From: a virus
Lineage: Duplodnaviria; Heunggongvirae; Uroviricota; Caudoviricetes
IMG/VR virus record: IMGVR_UViG_2690316149_000014
Location: 1 to 17,767 of that record
Strand: one strand, 5' to 3'
DNA: 17,767 nucleotides
Shown here piece after piece: positions 12,932-17,169 of this stretch. Made by a program: the position numbers and the translations under genes. Positions within the stretch are counted from its first letter, which is position 1. The number at the start of each line of letters is the position of its first letter. The notes below the pieces were generated by a model, which ran no database searches, was not told where the DNA came from, and saw nothing but the letters and a program-made list of their open reading frames with translations.

Positions 12932-13808
12932 GTTAGCTGATTACAGGCATAACCCTGTACAACATCAGGAGGCATCCAGTATGGGGTATGTCTCTATACA
13001 CCGCCAGTTTATGGACAGCAGGCTCTATAAGGACTCTCAGGCAGTACATCTTTGGCTTCACTTAATCCTCAAGGCTAATCACGAATCTACTGTCGTCAAT
13101 ACGGATATCGGTCCGATAACTGTTGAGCGCGGTCAGATGATAACTGGACGCCCGTCGCTGGTCAGAGAAACATTCATCCCCGACAACAAAGTTCGGAGCT
13201 TATTACGGACTTTTGAGTCGAAAGGTATGCTTAATATTTGCTCGATGGGGAAGAAATTTAGCCTGTTTACAATCGTTAAATATGACGATTTTCAGGCAAA
13301 AAATTGTCCAACGGTTGTCCAACAGTTGTCCAACGCAAACACCAGTAATGGTGCGGCTCTCAGCGGAGATTGTCCAACGGTTGTCCAACAGTTGTCCATA
13401 AACAATAATATAAATAATATCTCTAATACTGACGTATTAGAGAGTGCTACAGCAGACAAAAAGTCTGACAAGAAAAAACCTTCCGTCAGCTGTCAGGATG
13501 TTGTCGATGCTTACCACGAAATCCTTCCTGAAGCGCCAAGAATCCGCGCACTGAATGACAAGCGTAAAAACCAGATCCGAACGTTCTGGCGCAAAGCCGG
13601 AGTGATAACCCGCCAGCTTGACGGGCATGGGTTCACGATGCAGGACTGGAGAAATTATTTGAGCTACGTAGGCGAAAATTGCCGATGGATGTTCGAAGAA
13701 CGCCCAAACCATCAACGCGGAACCGTCTGGCACAAAAAGGGATTTGATTTCCTGCTTAACGACAATACCTACCTGAAAGTTCGTGAGGGTGAACACGATG
13801 ACCGATAA
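12918..13808 (+). CDS. Replication initiation protein (O-like; P22 gene 18-type), 296 aa, with origin iterons inside the coding sequence
   Basis: Position after cII and before a DnaB-type helicase; internal iterons and AT-rich tract; the tandem peptide repeat NCPTVVQQLSN is the translation of the iterons. Confidence 0.75.
   Translation: MGVVKLADYRHNPVQHQEASSMGYVSIHRQFMDSRLYKDSQAVHLWLHLILKANHESTVVNTDIGPITVERGQMITGRPSLVRETFIPDNKVRSLLRTFESKGMLNICSMGKKFSLFTIVKYDDFQAKNCPTVVQQLSNANTSNGAALSGDCPTVVQQLSINNNINNISNTDVLESATADKKSDKKKPSVSCQDVVDAYHEILPEAPRIRALNDKRKNQIRTFWRKAGVITRQLDGHGFTMQDWRNYLSYVGENCRWMFEERPNHQRGTVWHKKGFDFLLNDNTYLKVREGEHDDR
13304..13445. repeat. Replication origin: six TTGTCCAAC iterons in two triplets (13304-13334 and 13370-13400) followed by an AT-rich tract (13400-13445)
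   Basis: Seen directly; 11-bp periodicity within each triplet; the triplets are a ~36-bp direct repeat. Confidence 0.7.
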
Positions 13809-15234
13809 TTTTTATGCGCCGCCCCATAGCATCGAGGCAGAGCAGGCGGTGATTGGTGGATTGCTTCTGGATGATGACAGCAGTGAGCGCGTCCAGAAAG
13901 TTCTGGCGATGCTGAAGCCTGATTCATTTTACAGCCGACCACACAAAATCCTTTTCGAAGAGATAACCAGAATGCACCGGGAGCAAAAGCCAGTAGATGG
14001 CCTGACGCTTTTCGATGAACTGGAGCGTAAATCGTTAACGGCGTCTGTTGGCGGTTTTGCTTATATCGCTGAGATCGCAAAGAACACGCCAAGCGCAGCA
14101 AACATCGTTGCCTATGCAATGCAGGTTCGCGAAACCGCAATGGAACGCTACGCCATCAACCGCATGACTGAAGCGACGGAATTGCTCTATTCCCGCAACG
14201 GAATGACTGCAACGCAGAAGTACGAAGCTATTCAGGCGATTTTCACGCAACTGACAGACCATGCAAAAACCGGATCGCGTCGCGGACTTCGCTCATTTGG
14301 TGAGGTCATGGAAGACTGGGTTAGCGACCTTGAGAAGCGTTTTGACCCGTCAGGCGAACAACGAGGAATGAGCACAGGGATCCCATCGCTGGACAGGATG
14401 CTGTCACCGAAAGGTCTGGTGAAAGGCTCTTTGTTTGTCATTGGCGCTCGCCCTAAGATGGGGAAAACGACGCTATACAGCCAGATGGCAATCAACTGCG
14501 CAGTGCATGAGAAAAAGCCCGCTCTGATGTTCAGCCTTGAAATGCCAGGTGACCAGATACTGGAAAAACTGGTAGGGCAAAAGTCAGGTGTTAACCCCAA
14601 TATTTTTTACCTTCCGGCGACAAATGACGCTGATGACGGCTATCAGGGTGATTACGATGGTGACTTCAACAGGGCGATCGAAACAGCTAATCGCTTGAGT
14701 GAAATCGACATGCTTTACATCGACGACACGCCGGGATTATCTCTGGCTCAAATCGTCAGCGAAAGCCGTCGAATCAAGCGAGAAAAAGGATGTGTTGGCA
14801 TGATTCTGGTCGATTACCTGACACTAATGACCGCTGAGAAGGCCGATCGCAACGACCTTGCTTACGGCATGATCACCAAAGGACTGAAGAACCTTGCCAA
14901 AGAGCTTGATTGCGTTGTTGTGCTTCTGACGCAGCTTAACCGCGCACTGGAAAGCCGAACCAATAAACGCCCATTACCAAGTGACTCACGAGATACAGGG
15001 CAGATTGAACAGGATTGCGATTATTGGGTTGGGATCCATCGTGAAGGCGCTTTTGATGACAGTGTTCCACCTGGTGAAACCGAACTAATCCTTCGTCTCA
15101 ATCGTCATGGCAATACCGGCACGGTGTATTGCATTCAGGCAAATGGCGCTATTTATGACACAGACCAACAGTCTGCTGAAATGCGCCGACGTGAACGCGA
15201 GGAACCGCAGTCCAAGAAGAAAGGAGGATTCTGA
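13798..15234 (+). CDS. Replicative DNA helicase, DnaB family, 479 aa from ATG 13798
   Basis: DnaB N-terminal signature PHSIEAEQAVIGGLLLD, Walker A GARPKMGKT, Walker B-like ILVDYLTLM; RBS GAGGGTG. The track ORF starts 15 nt earlier at a non-ATG codon. Confidence 0.9.
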   Translation: MTDNFYAPPHSIEAEQAVIGGLLLDDDSSERVQKVLAMLKPDSFYSRPHKILFEEITRMHREQKPVDGLTLFDELERKSLTASVGGFAYIAEIAKNTPSAANIVAYAMQVRETAMERYAINRMTEATELLYSRNGMTATQKYEAIQAIFTQLTDHAKTGSRRGLRSFGEVMEDWVSDLEKRFDPSGEQRGMSTGIPSLDRMLSPKGLVKGSLFVIGARPKMGKTTLYSQMAINCAVHEKKPALMFSLEMPGDQILEKLVGQKSGVNPNIFYLPATNDADDGYQGDYDGDFNRAIETANRLSEIDMLYIDDTPGLSLAQIVSESRRIKREKGCVGMILVDYLTLMTAEKADRNDLAYGMITKGLKNLAKELDCVVVLLTQLNRALESRTNKRPLPSDSRDTGQIEQDCDYWVGIHREGAFDDSVPPGETELILRLNRHGNTGTVYCIQANGAIYDTDQQSAEMRRREREEPQSKKKGGF

Positions 15235-15309
15235 TGACCATCTACATCACTGAGCTTGTAACAGGCCTGCTGGTAATCGCAGGCCTTTTTATTTGGGGGA
15301 GGGTAAATC

Positions 15310-15516
15310 GTGGTTGAGTTTATGCTCGTCGCACTCAAATTCGTTGGCGTTGGATGGATTCTTCTGACGTTTTTTATTTTTCTGCATAGCTACATTCGCC
15401 TTGTGAATGACGGTAAAGATCCATGGTATACGTTGTTTGGCGCTGCATTTGTCTGGGTGATTATCGGTGTTATGCCTGTCGCTGTAGCAAAAATGGCGTG
15501 GCGTTTTGTGAGTTGA
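15310..15516 (+). CDS. Small membrane protein, 68 aa, two predicted TM helices
   Basis: GTG start with RBS GGAGGG; hydrophobic hairpin topology. Follows a 27-aa hydrophobic mini-ORF (15234..15317) coupled to the helicase stop. Confidence 0.5.
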   Translation: MVEFMLVALKFVGVGWILLTFFIFLHSYIRLVNDGKDPWYTLFGAAFVWVIIGVMPVAVAKMAWRFVS

Positions 15517-15533
15517 ACTGAGGGTAAGTATCG

Positions 15534-15800
15534 ATGGACGAATCAAGAAAGCAGTTTGAAGAATGGTTTGAAAATTACACCGGATGTGATCCTAAAAATA
15601 AAATATACGCCAATATGGTTGAGATGTATTGGCAAGCGTGGCAGGCATCGCGAGCAGCTATCGAGATTGAGTGTCCTGGAAAAAGAGAGCGTGAGGCATT
15701 TTCTACCGATTTCGAGGATGGGGTCACATTTGGTTATAACGACGCAATTAGTGAATGCGAAGGACGGATTCGCGCTGCTGGAGTCAAAGTGAAGGGGTGA
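15534..15800 (+). CDS. Hypothetical protein, 88 aa (paralogue A of the MDESRKQFEE family)
   Basis: Shares N-terminal MDESRKQFEE, central W.AWQASRAAIE and C-terminal IRAAG.K motifs with the 16258..16614 product. Confidence 0.65.
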   Translation: MDESRKQFEEWFENYTGCDPKNKIYANMVEMYWQAWQASRAAIEIECPGKREREAFSTDFEDGVTFGYNDAISECEGRIRAAGVKVKG

Positions 15801-15802
15801 GC

Positions 15803-15988
15803 ATGAGTCGACGAAGTAGCTTTTTGGGGTTTGTAATATTCCTGTTCTGCACTGGTTACATCGTAATCTGGTCAATTTCGAACATTGACCGTAGCGGGGA
15901 ATATCTCATTGTAATGTTCTTTCCTTTGTTTCTTGGGTGGTACGCCGCAAGGTTGCTGGAAGAATGGGGTTACAGGCATAAAAAATAA
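15803..15988 (+). CDS. Small membrane protein, 61 aa, two predicted TM helices
   Basis: Track ORF 15755..15988 trimmed to the ATG at 15803 (RBS GAAGGGG), 2 nt after the paralogue A stop. Confidence 0.45.
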   Translation: MSRRSSFLGFVIFLFCTGYIVIWSISNIDRSGEYLIVMFFPLFLGWYAARLLEEWGYRHKK

Positions 15989-16047
15989 AGGAGTGTTCAG
16001 TGAAGCAAACCCTTTTTTATTGGATTAAGAGCGAGTGGTAATTACCG

Positions 16048-16230
16048 ATGGTAAATGCATTTATTTGTAGTTTATTTCTTGTCGCGATTTTTCATGGATT
16101 CCTTCTGATGATGAGTTTTGTTCTCTGGAATAATGGATATCGCATATTGGGAGTAGGTTTTGTTTTACGGTTTTCAGTTGTCTGCGCGTTGCTACCGATA
16201 ATTATGGCGACTATCAAATATTATTGGTAA
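16048..16230 (+). CDS. Small membrane protein, 60 aa, two predicted TM helices, AT-rich
   Basis: Hydrophobic profile; weak RBS; preceded by a 13-codon mini-ORF that has a strong AAGGAG RBS. Confidence 0.4.
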   Translation: MVNAFICSLFLVAIFHGFLLMMSFVLWNNGYRILGVGFVLRFSVVCALLPIIMATIKYYW

Positions 16231-16257
16231 CCCAAAAAATCATCGATGGAGAGTGAT

Positions 16258-16614
16258 ATGGACGAATCAAGAAAGCAGTTTGAGGAATACGTTGCCAAAA
16301 AATTGAGATTACCATTCGAGATGATAACCGAGGCAAGAAATGGTGATAGGTACTTCGCATTTTCAAGCATGGATATTCGTCACTCCTTAAATGAGTGGTG
16401 GACTTTATGGCAGGCATCGCGAGCAGCTATTGAACTGGATATCGACTGGCCAGAATCGAATGACGACTTTTGGAAAGATGGTGAAGAAGGTGCTTATGCG
16501 ATGGGTTATGAGGATGGGCGTGACAAAACGGTAATTGCAGTAATGAAAGCTATCAGAGCCGCTGGAATTAAAGAGAAGAATTTCGATGAAGCAAACAATC
16601 TTCCTCCGAAGTAA
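16258..16614 (+). CDS. Hypothetical protein, 118 aa (paralogue B of the MDESRKQFEE family)
   Basis: Track ORF 16246..16614 trimmed to the ATG at 16258 (RBS GGAGAG); shares the three paralogue A motifs. Confidence 0.65.
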   Translation: MDESRKQFEEYVAKKLRLPFEMITEARNGDRYFAFSSMDIRHSLNEWWTLWQASRAAIELDIDWPESNDDFWKDGEEGAYAMGYEDGRDKTVIAVMKAIRAAGIKEKNFDEANNLPPK

Positions 16615-16996
16615 GCAACAACAGCAAGCCGCAATAAATGCCATCCTCGCAACACCACTCGATAAAGACAAGCCAGTCACCATCCGCATTACTGACTACA
16701 AGCGCAACCTTGACCAGAACGCAAAATTTCACGCGATGCTGGCGGATATCGCTCGTCAGGTTCAATGGTGCGGCAAATGGTTAAAACCGGAACAATGGAA
16801 GGTTTTGTTGATCAGCGGTCATGCAGTGGCAACAAAACAGGAAGCTGATGTTTTGCCCGGGCTTGAAGGCGAATACGTCAACATTCGCGAAAGTAGCGCG
16901 CAGATGAGTGTGAAGCGTATGGCAAGTCTGATTGAGTACACGACAGCATGGGCTATTGGTCAGGGTGTCAGATTTACCGACAGGAGGTACGAATGA
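16586..16996 (+). CDS. ninB: NinB (Orf-family recombination mediator), 136 aa
   Basis: Recalled similarity to lambda NinB (…[25 protein letters not shown]…); first gene of a ninB-ninE-ninF run. Confidence 0.8.
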
Positions 16997-17169
16997 GACG
17001 ACAGCGACGAAGTTTCACCGACATCATCTGCGAAAACTGCAAATACCTTCCAACGAAACGCTCCAGAAATAAACGCAAGCCAATCCCAAAAGAATCTGAC
17101 GTAAAAACCTTCAACTACACGGCTCACCTGTGGGATATCCGGTGGCTAAGACATCGTGCGAGGAAATGA
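16993..17169 (+). CDS. ninE: NinE-like protein, 58 aa
   Basis: Track ORF 16948..17169 trimmed to the ATG at 16993 (RBS AGGAGG; ATGA overlap with the ninB stop); recalled NinE-like sequence [30 protein letters not shown]…. Confidence 0.7.

What the first reader, a model, noticed from the sequence alone, without database searches (positions are those of the whole stretch)
15234..16614. Cassette of three small 2-TM membrane proteins interleaved with two MDESRKQFEE paralogues
Seen: between the helicase and ninB the order is 27-aa hydrophobic mini-ORF, 68-aa membrane protein, 88-aa soluble protein, 61-aa membrane protein, 60-aa AT-rich membrane protein, 118-aa soluble protein. The two soluble proteins are paralogues. 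At DNA level they share two near-identical blocks (ATGGACGAATCAAGAAAGCAGTTTGA at both starts; TGGCAGGCATCGCGAGCAGCTAT internally) in otherwise diverged genes, which suggests duplication or gene conversion. Inference: a repeated two-component unit (small membrane effector plus soluble partner), possibly toxin/antitoxin-like or exclusion-like. In lambda this slot holds ren, an accessory exclusion-related gene, so it is a known moron site.
Basis: partly seen in the sequence, partly recalled or inferred. Interest (0 to 1): 0.65.

Follow-up and report, generated by a model that had tools for sequence, protein, structure and literature searches.

The report
Composite accessory-gene slot before ninB
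The "cassette" is the ordinary, highly shuffled accessory-gene slot at the head of the nin region of a lambda-like prophage. Two alternative versions of that slot were joined head to tail by one old recombination accident, so it is not a repeated toxin/partner unit.

Summary
The ORFs, the paralogy and the two shared DNA blocks are all real. The interpretation mostly does not hold.

- **27-aa ORF:** this is the known NinA mini-gene, and the lambda tR2 terminator lies inside it.
- **Soluble proteins:** both belong to an uncharacterised family, Pfam PF26207 (Phage_phiTE_015), PHROG 343, Sf6 gp48. The family is mosaic: N- and C-terminal segments reassort around a core (WQASRAAIE). The core and the start block are nearly invariant at DNA level in about 110 genes. 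The shared blocks are therefore family-wide recombination linkers, not local gene conversion.
- **Tandem arrangement:** the window carries cassette A (ninA–m68–phiTE–m61–ninB') fused to cassette B (ninA2'–m60–phiTE–ninB). The joint, GTGAAGCAAAC|CCTTTTTTATTGG, is identical in all 12 tandem loci examined, which points to one ancestral illegitimate event.
- **Independent modules:** m68, m61 and the soluble gene each occur without the others in other phages.
- **Coding evidence:** m68 and m61 show purifying selection. The AT-rich 60-aa ORF does not.
- **Expression and function:** I found no promoter and no defence, toxin–antitoxin or structural match. The genes form a tight same-strand chain behind tR2, so they are probably N-dependent delayed-early accessory genes. 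Function is unknown.
- **Ren:** lambda's ren lies upstream of this slot, not in it.

The parts
15234..15317 (+). NinA mini-gene (27 aa, one hydrophobic segment). Its ATG overlaps the helicase stop (TGATG), and a strong Shine-Dalgarno AAGGAGG lies 5 nt upstream.
   Evidence: The product is an exact match to HK620 NinA AAK28874.1. HK620 annotates ninA with tR2 inside it. The NinA translation start is functional in lambda constructs (PMC4824070).
15263..15296 (+). Intrinsic terminator tR2: stem AGGCCTGC/GCAGGCCT, 8-nt loop, then TTTTTATTT. It lies inside the ninA coding sequence.
   Evidence: Found by the terminator scan. Hairpin and T-tract are base-for-base identical to lambda's in the alignment. 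Annotated as tR2 or rho-independent terminator in HK620 and mEp235. The hairpin is present in the fold; the energy is not exceptional, z -1.15.
15310..15516 (+). m68: 68-aa protein with two hydrophobic segments (PHROG 1165). Its GTG start overlaps the ninA stop by 8 nt.
   Evidence: phrog_1165, E 1.6e-37. 59 copies in related loci, of which 56 are full-length and intact (one has an internal stop, two are truncated). Mean dN/dS about 0.37. 42 synonymous against 80 non-synonymous polymorphisms, p = 0.004 for a deficit of non-synonymous changes. Present alone between ninA and ninB in HK620. It is not related to the DUF7301 protein that occupies this position in other prophages.
15520..15537 (+). 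Intergenic linker and ribosome-binding motif GAGGGTAAGTATCGATGG in front of soluble gene copy 1. Nearly the same motif precedes m60 in other phages (GAGGGGTAAGTACCGATGG).
15534..15800 (+). Soluble gene copy 1 (88 aa), PF26207/PHROG 343 family, allele N3/C2.
   Evidence: phrog_343, E 5.4e-29. Homologous to copy 2. Family alignment. Segment typing.
15639..15664 (+). Conserved core block of copy 1 (encodes WQASRAAIE). This is the intragenic recombination joint of the family.
   Evidence: Repeat D2. Phage Gally carries a hybrid gene that crosses over here. N-types and C-types reassort around it. The block is nearly invariant at DNA level in 112 genes.
15768..15800 (+). Conserved 3' block of copy 1 (encodes IRAAGVKVKG plus stop). 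This is the module boundary used in other phages.
   Evidence: Homology break-points at 15768 and 15778 in Gally, mEp235 and ML775. Variants of the end block are listed.
15803..15988 (+). m61: 61-aa protein with two hydrophobic segments. It starts 2 nt after the stop of copy 1, behind a GAAGGGG Shine-Dalgarno. It is not annotated in RefSeq relatives.
   Evidence: A 70%-identical, equal-length homologue lies directly after a DnaB gene in L013. dN/dS 0.21 in frame, against 0.7 and 2.0 in the shifted frames. 25 synonymous against 28 non-synonymous polymorphisms, p = 2.5e-5. Annotated in phage 611R6. No feature is annotated under the match in RefSeq genomes.
15996..16041 (+). Fusion joint. The first 11 nt of a ninB gene (GTGAAGCAAAC, with its AAGGAG Shine-Dalgarno) are joined at 16010/16011 to the tail of a second ninA allele and its tR2 T-tract (CCTTTTTTATTGG...TAA). 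This leaves a 13-aa mini-ORF at 16000-16041. The hairpin of the second terminator is missing.
   Evidence: Repeat D3, 15996-16010 against the true ninB start at 16582-16596. Alignment with Gally, EC556, A41 and 611R6. The joint is identical in 12 tandem loci and in L011. No terminator was detected here.
16048..16230 (+). m60: AT-rich 60-aa ORF with two hydrophobic segments. Its coding status is unproven.
   Evidence: The ORF is intact in 30 of 30 copies, in 10 DNA variants. It is always followed by a PF26207 gene, in three different upstream contexts. Against coding: 7 synonymous against 17 non-synonymous polymorphisms (p = 0.25), and an open frame this long in 12% of composition-matched simulations. 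dN/dS 0.6-0.85. No PHROG or Pfam hit. No sign of a structured RNA, z +1.57.
16258..16614 (+). Soluble gene copy 2 (118 aa), PF26207/PHROG 343 family, allele N0/C0. Its 3' end overlaps ninB by 29 nt.
   Evidence: A 99%-identical cluster representative carries PF26207. A near-identical protein (the surrounding DNA matches at 99.2%) is named 'phiTE_015 family protein' in RefSeq. phrog_343, E 5e-31. Blocks D1' 16258-16288 and D2' 16408-16433.
16586..16996 (+). ninB, the downstream boundary of the slot.
   Evidence: Pfam NinB, E 1e-55.

Best explanation
The region is the hypervariable accessory slot between the tR2 terminator (inside the NinA mini-gene) and ninB, in the pR early-right operon of a lambdoid prophage.

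In related phages this slot is filled combinatorially from a small pool of modules: m68, DUF7301, tm106, m60, one PF26207 'phiTE_015' gene, m61 and s54.

The window holds two alternative versions of the slot fused head to tail. Cassette A is ninA-m68-phiTE-m61-ninB'. Cassette B is ninA2'-m60-phiTE-ninB. One illegitimate join links nucleotide 11 of a ninB gene to the T-tract of a second tR2/ninA allele. That join created the 'interleaved' pattern and the two 'paralogues', which are different alleles of one mosaic gene family.

The near-identical DNA blocks are the family's conserved start and core. They act as homologous-recombination linkers across the whole family.

**Expression (inferred).** All the genes form a tightly packed, same-strand, Shine-Dalgarno-preceded chain behind tR2, with no promoter of their own. 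They should therefore be transcribed only when N antitermination reads through tR2, as delayed-early lytic genes.

**Function (inferred, low confidence).** These are non-essential lytic-phase accessory proteins. m68 and m61 probably insert in the inner membrane. The most likely role is blocking superinfecting DNA entry or modulating a host membrane protein. The acidic PF26207 protein acts in the cytoplasm, possibly against a host factor. Its conserved scaffold with hypervariable inserts fits a fast-evolving interaction surface.
For: **Context.** cI, cro, cII, a replication gene, a DnaB helicase, then NinB, NinE, NinX and NinF.

**NinA and tR2.** The ORF is an exact match to HK620 NinA, and the hairpin and T-tract match lambda base for base. 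The scan finds the terminator.

**Combinatorial slot.** 111 loci gave 35 architectures. The commonest are ninA-m68-phiTE-NinB (26), ninA-DUF7301-phiTE-NinB (8), ninA-tm106-phiTE-NinB (7) and ninA2-m60-phiTE-NinB (6). ninA-m68-phiTE-m61-NinB occurs 7 times.

**Fusion joint.** It is identical in all 12 tandem loci and in L011. Both parental flanks were identified. Repeat D3 matches the true ninB start.

**Mosaic family.** N-types and C-types reassort: N0 pairs with C0, C1, C3, C6 and C10, and N2 pairs with C0-C4. The start and core blocks are nearly invariant at DNA level, synonymous sites included. Gally carries a hybrid gene.

**Chain of genes.** Gaps between successive genes are -1, -8, 17, 2, 11, 6, 27, -29 and -4 nt. 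No + strand promoter was found.

**Coding evidence.** m68 and m61 show purifying selection.

**Rarity of the two-copy state.** Only 2 of 5426 complete E. coli genomes match at least 80% of the window's arrangement. 58 carry the m61-joint-m60 segment.

**Dispensability.** nin genes are described as non-essential in the laboratory (PMC5630979).
Against: - The AlphaFold2 model is only moderately confident, pLDDT 72.
- The promoter scan is a crude consensus search and cannot exclude a weak or non-sigma-70 promoter.
- m60 is followed by a PF26207 gene in 30 of 30 copies. A functional pairing of those two is therefore not excluded.
- The locus sample was largely chosen for containing a PF26207 gene, so the architecture frequencies are biased.
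- m60 may not be a gene at all.
Confidence: 0.75

Rival explanations
1. One reading: the region is a repeated two-component unit. A small membrane effector is paired with a soluble partner and works as a toxin/antitoxin-like or superinfection-exclusion system expressed from a moron site.
For: - Membrane-type and soluble ORFs do alternate in the window.
- m60 is always immediately followed by a PF26207 gene, 30 of 30, in three upstream contexts.
- The m60 segment has a deviant GC content of 36%.
Against: - The modules assort independently: m68 alone (HK620), PF26207 without any catalogued small-protein module (L090, L106), an m61 homologue after DnaB with no PF26207 (L013/14), and DUF7301 (not a membrane protein) in m68's place.
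- The alternation arises from one fusion joint.
- There is no promoter, and no terminator after the cassette.
- PADLOC and Pfam gave no hits.
- The genes lie behind tR2 in the lytic pR operon, not in a lysogen-expressed unit.
- The two-copy state is rare, 2 of 5426 genomes.
Confidence: 0.08
2. Part of the 'cassette' is not coding. The AT-rich 60-aa ORF (16048-16230) is a chance open frame in a T-rich spacer that travels with the 5' half of the PF26207 gene, so only two real small membrane genes are present (besides NinA).
For: - Polymorphisms are 7 synonymous against 17 non-synonymous, where 78% non-synonymous is expected by chance (p = 0.25).
- A stop-free run this long appears in 588 of 5000 composition-matched simulations.
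- dN/dS is 0.6-0.85.
- Only three protein clusters exist, all at least 80% identical.
- PGAP never annotates it.
- There is no PHROG or Pfam family.
Against: - The ORF is intact and of identical length in 30 of 30 copies and 10 DNA variants.
- Its module boundary begins about 20 nt upstream and includes a conserved GAGGG(G)TAAG Shine-Dalgarno-like motif. In all three contexts an upstream ORF stops 6 nt before its ATG.
- The amino-acid replacements keep the hydrophobic pattern.
- There is no evidence for an alternative RNA-level role.
Confidence: 0.4
3. The PF26207 protein is a cytoplasmic partner of the recombination mediator NinB, or a counter-defence protein. The small membrane ORFs are unrelated hitch-hikers.
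For: - PF26207 genes sit immediately upstream of ninB, often overlapping it, even in relatives at 30-35% identity from Pseudocitrobacter, Atlantibacter, Shimwellia and Erwinia.
- The protein is small and acidic, pI 4.75.
- It has conserved scaffold motifs and hypervariable inserts.
- The family is large: 878 clusters at 50% identity, almost all stand-alone proteins of 80-140 aa.
Against: - Lambdoid gene order is conserved in general, so adjacency is weak evidence.
- Other modules (m61, s54, DUF7301) can sit between it and ninB.
- There is no structural or sequence similarity to any known anti-defence or recombination protein.
- Lambda and HK620 have ninB without it.
Confidence: 0.15

Closest known systems
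Lambda ninR 'chain of interlinked genes', with NinA and terminator tR2 (Kroger & Hobom 1982 and Liu et al. 2013, as cited in PMC4824070)
   Same: The ninA/tR2 sequence matches lambda's almost exactly through the hairpin and T-tract. It sits in the same position, directly after the last replication-region gene and before ninB. The genes are overlapping or closely spaced on one strand.
   Different: In lambda, ninA runs straight into ninB and the slot is empty. Here about 1.27 kb with five further ORFs is inserted.
Pfam PF26207 Phage_phiTE_015 / PHROG 343 (Shigella phage Sf6 gene 48; 933W and other Stx-phage hypothetical proteins; 'phiTE_015 family protein' in RefSeq)
   Same: Both soluble proteins carry the family's three conserved motifs: MDESRKQFEE, WQASRAAIE and IRAAG(I/V)K. 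They sit at the family's usual place upstream of ninB.
   Different: Two alleles lie in one phage, whereas the norm is one. Copy 1 is a short N3/C2 type. Copy 2 is an N0/C0 type with a C-terminal tail that overlaps ninB.
Lambdoid genome mosaicism: module exchange at conserved boundary sequences, plus occasional illegitimate joins. Named from my own knowledge: Juhala et al. 2000 and Clark et al. 2001. Related papers PMC2327257 and PMC3945230 were listed but not read in detail.
   Same: Break-points fall at gene boundaries and at short conserved blocks. There is one non-homologous joint with 1-2 nt of microhomology. The same modules occur in many combinations.
   Different: Here one of the exchange points is inside a gene (the WQASRAAIE core). 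The gene itself is therefore a two-segment mosaic.
Morons (self-contained promoter-gene-terminator insertions expressed from the prophage; definition from my own knowledge, Juhala et al. 2000)
   Same: Accessory, variable content inserted between conserved genes. One segment (m60) has deviant GC content.
   Different: No promoter or terminator of its own was detected. The genes are embedded in the N-dependent pR transcript behind tR2.
Small inner-membrane superinfection-exclusion proteins (T4 Imm, P22 SieA, HK97 gp15; from my own knowledge)
   Same: Small phage proteins with one or two predicted membrane segments.
   Different: There is no sequence similarity to any annotated family. The function is untested.

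Membership tests
NinA / tR2 (lambdoid) | A short hydrophobic ORF starting at the stop codon of the last replication-region gene, with the tR2 hairpin and T-tract inside it | tested here: met
   The 27-aa product is an exact match to HK620 NinA. Hairpin and T-tract are identical to lambda, HK620 and mEp235. The terminator scan finds it. HK620 annotates it as tR2.
Pfam PF26207 Phage_phiTE_015 / PHROG 343 | A significant match to the family profile | tested here: met
   phrog_343, E 5e-29 (88 aa) and 5e-31 (118 aa). A 99%-identical representative of the 118-aa protein carries PF26207. The 88-aa protein was not scored against PF26207, because the local Pfam copy gave no hit and appears to lack the model. 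It is placed in the family by the PHROG hit, BLASTP to the 118-aa protein (E 2e-13) and the shared motifs.
Pfam PF26207 Phage_phiTE_015 / PHROG 343 | The conserved motifs M-D/T-E/S-S-R-x-x-F-E, W-Q-A-S-R-A-A-I-E and I-R-A-A-G-I/V-K | tested here: met
   All three are present in both copies.
Moron | A promoter of its own upstream, allowing expression from the repressed prophage | tested here: not met
   No sigma-70-like site on the + strand in 14900-17000. One site lies on the - strand, and 3.3 are expected by chance. This is a crude consensus scan only.
Moron | A terminator of its own downstream of the inserted gene(s) | tested here: not met
   The only terminator-like sites are tR2 (15263-15286) and a weak one inside m68 (15346-15371). 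None lies between 15520 and ninB.
Toxin-antitoxin or two-gene membrane-effector/partner system | The two components are inherited together as a unit | tested here: not met
   m68, m61 and PF26207 each occur without the others. Exception: m60 is always next to a PF26207 gene, 30 of 30.
Toxin-antitoxin or two-gene membrane-effector/partner system | Toxicity of one component that is neutralised by the other | not testable with these tools
   This needs expression experiments.
Known anti-phage defence systems (PADLOC-DB 2.0) | A match to any model of a known or candidate defence protein | tested here: not met
   No families matched any of the six products at E up to 1.
DUF7301 | Sequence similarity to the DUF7301 protein that occupies this position in O26/O103 prophages | tested here: not met
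   The ML775 DUF7301 protein is a charged, non-hydrophobic 71-aa sequence with no visible resemblance to m68 (judged by eye; no alignment was run). It replaces m68 and copy 1 in those prophages.

The most novel reading that the evidence does not exclude
The small membrane ORFs (m68, m61, perhaps m60 and NinA) and the PF26207 protein could form a lytic-phase, membrane-associated system for superinfection exclusion or counter-defence. On this reading, the hypervariable inserts between invariant scaffold motifs in PF26207 record an arms race with host or competing-phage targets. The m60-PF26207 adjacency (30 of 30) would reflect a real functional pair. The invariant DNA linkers would then be a built-in device for shuffling specificity segments.
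Probability: 0.1. Interest if true: 0.6.

Novelty: new member of a known kind. Interest (0 to 1): 0.22.

Why it matters
Mainly as a clean-up. The finding looked like a repeated effector/partner system, but it is explained by ordinary lambdoid mosaicism plus one traceable illegitimate join.

Three modest by-products may be useful:
- A conserved 61-aa membrane-protein gene under purifying selection goes unannotated in about 200 complete E. coli RefSeq genomes.
- PF26207, a large family with 878 clusters at 50% identity, is a two-segment intragenic mosaic with DNA-invariant linkers. That makes it a tidy model for studying how phage genes are shuffled.
- NinA keeps its hydrophobic reading frame across alleles with different hairpins, or with no GC-rich hairpin at all. 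This suggests the peptide itself matters, not only the terminator.

None of these answers a long-standing question.

Tried and rejected
**Function searches for all six products: nothing usable.**
- Pfam gave only sub-threshold noise.
- NCBIfam gave nothing.
- PADLOC gave nothing.
- A PDB sequence-profile search had a best E of 2.2.

**Domain-fusion hints.** A profile search of 1.84 billion representatives returned almost only stand-alone proteins of 80-140 aa. Some carry short N-terminal additions, either a CxxCxGxG zinc-finger-like segment or a 'WAIKHKSGR' segment. These look like fused neighbouring mini-ORFs and told me nothing about function.

**RNA-level alternatives.** Rfam gave only a 19.6-bit hit to TeloSII_ncR30 (gathering score 86, E 0.1), which I treat as chance. 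The fold of 16005-16260 is less stable than shuffled sequence, z +1.57.

**Literature.** No paper contains 'phiTE_015' or 'DUF7301'. Searches on ninB/defence/hotspot and on nin region/small membrane found nothing specific to these genes.

**Rejected idea.** At first I took the RefSeq label 'DUF7301 family protein' to refer to the m68 homologue. Translating it showed an unrelated soluble protein.

**Tool oddities.**
- In one search, the listing for 'cluster 4' (the 60-aa query) contained PF26207 sequences, so I did not use that cluster's membership.
- My first dN/dS run used a start coordinate that was off by one. It was corrected.

Full report
**1. What is there**

The window is the immunity and early-right region of a lambdoid prophage. 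It carries a cI-type repressor on the minus strand. On the plus strand come cro, cII, a replication initiator, a DnaB-type helicase (13783-15234), the region in question, and then NinB, NinE, NinX and NinF.

| Name used here | Coordinates | Length |
|---|---|---|
| NinA | 15234-15317 | 27 aa |
| m68 | 15310-15516 | 68 aa |
| soluble copy 1 | 15534-15800 | 88 aa |
| m61 | 15803-15988 | 61 aa |
| m60 | 16048-16230 | 60 aa |
| soluble copy 2 | 16258-16614 | 118 aa |

- The two soluble proteins are homologous: 35% identity, E 2e-13.
- The two near-identical DNA blocks are real: 30/31 identical at the gene starts and 25/26 internally.
- By simple hydropathy, m68, m61 and m60 each have two hydrophobic segments and the 27-aa product has one.
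- The soluble proteins are acidic, pI about 4.75.

**2. The 27-aa ORF is NinA, with terminator tR2 inside it**

- The product is an exact match to the annotated NinA of phage HK620.
- HK620 annotates 'tR2' inside ninA, and mEp235 annotates a rho-independent terminator at the same place.
- The DNA from the ATG through the hairpin (AGGCCTGC-loop-GCAGGCCT) and the T-tract is almost identical to lambda between ren and ninB. The hairpin and T-tract match base for base.
- The terminator scan finds the hairpin at 15263-15286.
- PMC4824070 cites Kroger & Hobom 1982 and lambda ribosome profiling (Liu et al. 2013) for the NinA start. It shows the start is active, and that tR2, 30 nt downstream of it, still terminates.
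- This ORF is therefore a known feature, not part of a new membrane cassette.

**3. The slot is not ren's slot**

- In lambda the order is P, ren, ninA/tR2, ninB. Nothing lies between ninA and ninB.
- In E. coli ML775 the order is P, ren, ninA/tR2, then a version of the cassette, then ninB.
- The variable slot is therefore downstream of tR2. Ren lies upstream of it.

**4. The soluble proteins belong to a catalogued family of unknown function**

- Both hit PHROG 343.
- Homologues down to about 50% identity carry the precomputed Pfam family PF26207, Phage_phiTE_015.
- RefSeq names a near-identical protein 'phiTE_015 family protein'.
- Sf6 gene 48 and hypothetical proteins of 933W and many other Stx phages are members.
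- A profile search finds 878 clusters at 50% identity. Nearly all are stand-alone proteins of 80-140 aa.
- There is no solved structure and no fold match, and no literature.

**5. The family is an intragenic mosaic, which explains the shared blocks**

The alignment has three conserved motifs: MDESRKQFEE, WQASRAAIE and IRAAG(I/V)KVK. They are separated by two segments that are often unalignable.

The two segments reassort freely. N0 pairs with C0, C1, C3, C6 and C10. N2 pairs with C0 to C4. N3 pairs with C0, C1 and C2.

Phage Gally carries a hybrid: the first half is the window's copy-2 type, the second half is the copy-1 type, and the cross-over falls in the core block.

At DNA level the start block and the core are nearly invariant, synonymous positions included, in about 110 genes whatever their segment types. 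In the most distant members the serine codon family switches while the protein motif stays, so the motifs are also under protein-level selection.

They are not evidence of gene conversion within this genome. The window's copies are different alleles, N3/C2 and N0/C0.

**6. How the tandem arose**

I used tblastn with eleven reference proteins against the window and the 110 related loci fetched from complete genomes, phage records and IMG/VR contigs. This gave 35 architectures. The commonest have a single PF26207 gene:

| Architecture | Loci |
|---|---|
| ninA-m68-phiTE-NinB | 26 |
| ninA-DUF7301-phiTE-NinB | 8 |
| ninA-tm106-phiTE-NinB | 7 |
| ninA-m68-phiTE-m61-NinB | 7 |
| ninA2-m60-phiTE-NinB | 6 |

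Here ninA2 is a second allele of ninA/tR2 with a different hairpin.

The window equals the fourth architecture followed by the fifth. At 15996-16023 the sequence reads AAGGAGTGTTCA-GTGAAGCAAAC|CCTTTTTTATTGG.
- The left part is the ribosome-binding site and first 11 nt of a ninB gene, exactly as found after m61 in phages 611R6 and Gally.
- The right part is the T-tract and tail of ninA2, exactly as found in front of m60 in Gally, EC556 and A41.
- The hairpin of the second terminator is lost, so the window has only one tR2.
- The joint is identical in all 12 tandem loci, and in L011, where a different gene follows. This indicates one ancestral illegitimate event that has since been carried into other backgrounds.
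- One such background is the O26/O103 prophages, where a DUF7301 gene replaces m68 plus copy 1.
- The full two-copy arrangement is rare: 2 of 5426 complete E. coli genomes cover at least 80% of it. 58 genomes carry the m61-joint-m60 segment.

**7. Are the small membrane ORFs genes?**

- **m68: yes.**
  - It matches PHROG 1165.
  - Of 59 copies, 56 are full-length and intact; one has an internal stop and two are truncated.
  - There are two allelic types, mean dN/dS is 0.37, and non-synonymous polymorphism is in deficit at p = 0.004.
- **m61: yes.**
  - A 70%-identical homologue of identical length lies directly after a DnaB gene in an unrelated context.
  - dN/dS is 0.21 in frame, against 0.7 and 2.0 out of frame.
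  - The non-synonymous deficit has p = 2.5e-5.
  - RefSeq does not annotate it in any relative I inspected. Some GenBank phage records do.
- **m60: undecided.**
  - For coding: the frame is intact in 30 of 30 copies, and the module boundary includes a Shine-Dalgarno-like motif with an upstream stop 6 nt before the ATG in all three contexts.
  - Against: the polymorphisms are neutral-looking (7 synonymous, 17 non-synonymous, p = 0.25).
  - Against: an open frame this long appears in 12% of composition-matched simulations.
  - Against: no relative below 80% identity exists among 5.8 billion clusters.

**8. Is it a repeated effector/partner unit?**

The modules assort independently:
- m68 stands alone in HK620.
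- PF26207 occurs without any of the catalogued small proteins in L090 and L106.
- An m61 homologue occurs with no PF26207.
- A soluble DUF7301 protein takes m68's place in other prophages.

The one persistent adjacency is m60 followed by PF26207 (30 of 30). It could equally reflect the shared start-block linker.

No promoter-like site lies on the + strand and no terminator closes the cassette. Nothing matches PADLOC. The toxin-antitoxin, exclusion and moron readings therefore have no positive support here.

**9. How it most likely works**

*Shown.*
- The genes form a same-strand chain behind tR2. Gaps between successive genes are -1, -8, 17, 2, 11, 6, 27, -29 and -4 nt.
- Most starts are preceded by a recognisable Shine-Dalgarno-like motif. 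Those before m60 and ninB are weak.

*Inferred from established lambda biology.* Transcription comes from pR and passes tR2 only with N antitermination. These would then be delayed-early lytic genes, translated partly by coupling.

*Inferred, low confidence.*
- m68 and m61 insert in the inner membrane. They may block superinfecting DNA entry or modulate a host membrane protein.
- The acidic PF26207 protein acts in the cytoplasm. Its invariant scaffold with hypervariable inserts suits a fast-evolving interaction.
- nin genes are described as non-essential in the laboratory (PMC5630979).

**10. Verdict**

This is a composite of two versions of a known hypervariable nin-region slot. It is built from a known mini-gene with its terminator, a catalogued but uncharacterised mosaic family, and two or three small hydrophobic ORFs. 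I rate it a new member of a known kind, of low interest.

Noticed in passing
window 15234-15317; L004 1952-2032; L053 (ninA allele 3): NinA exists in at least three alleles. Allele 1 (lambda type) and allele 2 (MTIYITELITGAIYTVALFYWIKSEG) have entirely different terminator hairpins, yet both keep a 26-27-aa hydrophobic reading frame. Allele 3 (MTIYITELIAGLSLLMVLTVYIIKYILYANKKTN, five loci) has no GC-rich hairpin but is still a hydrophobic ORF. This suggests the peptide itself is under selection, not only the terminator.
   Followed up: partly
window 15803-15988, and about 200 complete E. coli genomes: The 61-aa gene shows clear purifying selection, but no feature is annotated under it in any RefSeq (PGAP) genome listed. 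This looks like a systematic small-gene annotation gap.
   Followed up: yes
L011 (E. coli 19451123), about 2685-2945: The same ninB'::ninA2' joint is followed here by a small cysteine-rich ORF (MDTVNGICSDAPRAKKCKCGK...) and a lambda-type ninB, not by m60 and a PF26207 gene. The joint, or the ninA2 tail, has therefore been recombined onto yet another cassette.
   Followed up: no
L013 2267-2587: In this metagenomic phage contig the m61 homologue lies directly after DnaB and upstream of an ORF beginning MTAYLTECIVGL, which looks like a diverged NinA. Here m61 sits on the other side of ninA.
   Followed up: no
proteins P0176, P0182, P0222, P0242, P0275, P0189, P0294: Some PF26207 representatives carry about 35-aa N-terminal additions of two recurring kinds. 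One is a CxxCxGxG...CxC zinc-finger-like segment. The other begins 'M(R/M)WAIKHKSGRxLF'. P0275 has both. They may be neighbouring mini-genes fused in frame or by gene calling.
   Followed up: no
window 15346-15371: A second terminator-like site (9-bp stem with only 3 G-C pairs, then TTTTTATTTTT) lies inside the m68 coding sequence. It is probably a by-product of Phe/Ile codons.
   Followed up: no
L053-L056: The architecture ninA-DUF7301-phiTE-DUF7301-NinB has DUF7301-like sequence on both sides of the PF26207 gene. This is another tandem-type arrangement in the same slot.
   Followed up: no
window 16000-16041: The fusion joint leaves a 13-aa ORF (VKQTLFYWIKSEW). It has the strong ninB Shine-Dalgarno (AAGGAG, 7-nt spacing) and stops 6 nt before the m60 ATG. 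It could couple translation into m60.
   Followed up: partly
tools: The local Pfam-A copy gave no hit for proteins whose close relatives carry precomputed PF26207, so the model appears to be absent from that copy. Separately, the cluster listing returned for the 60-aa query contained PF26207 sequences.
   Followed up: partly
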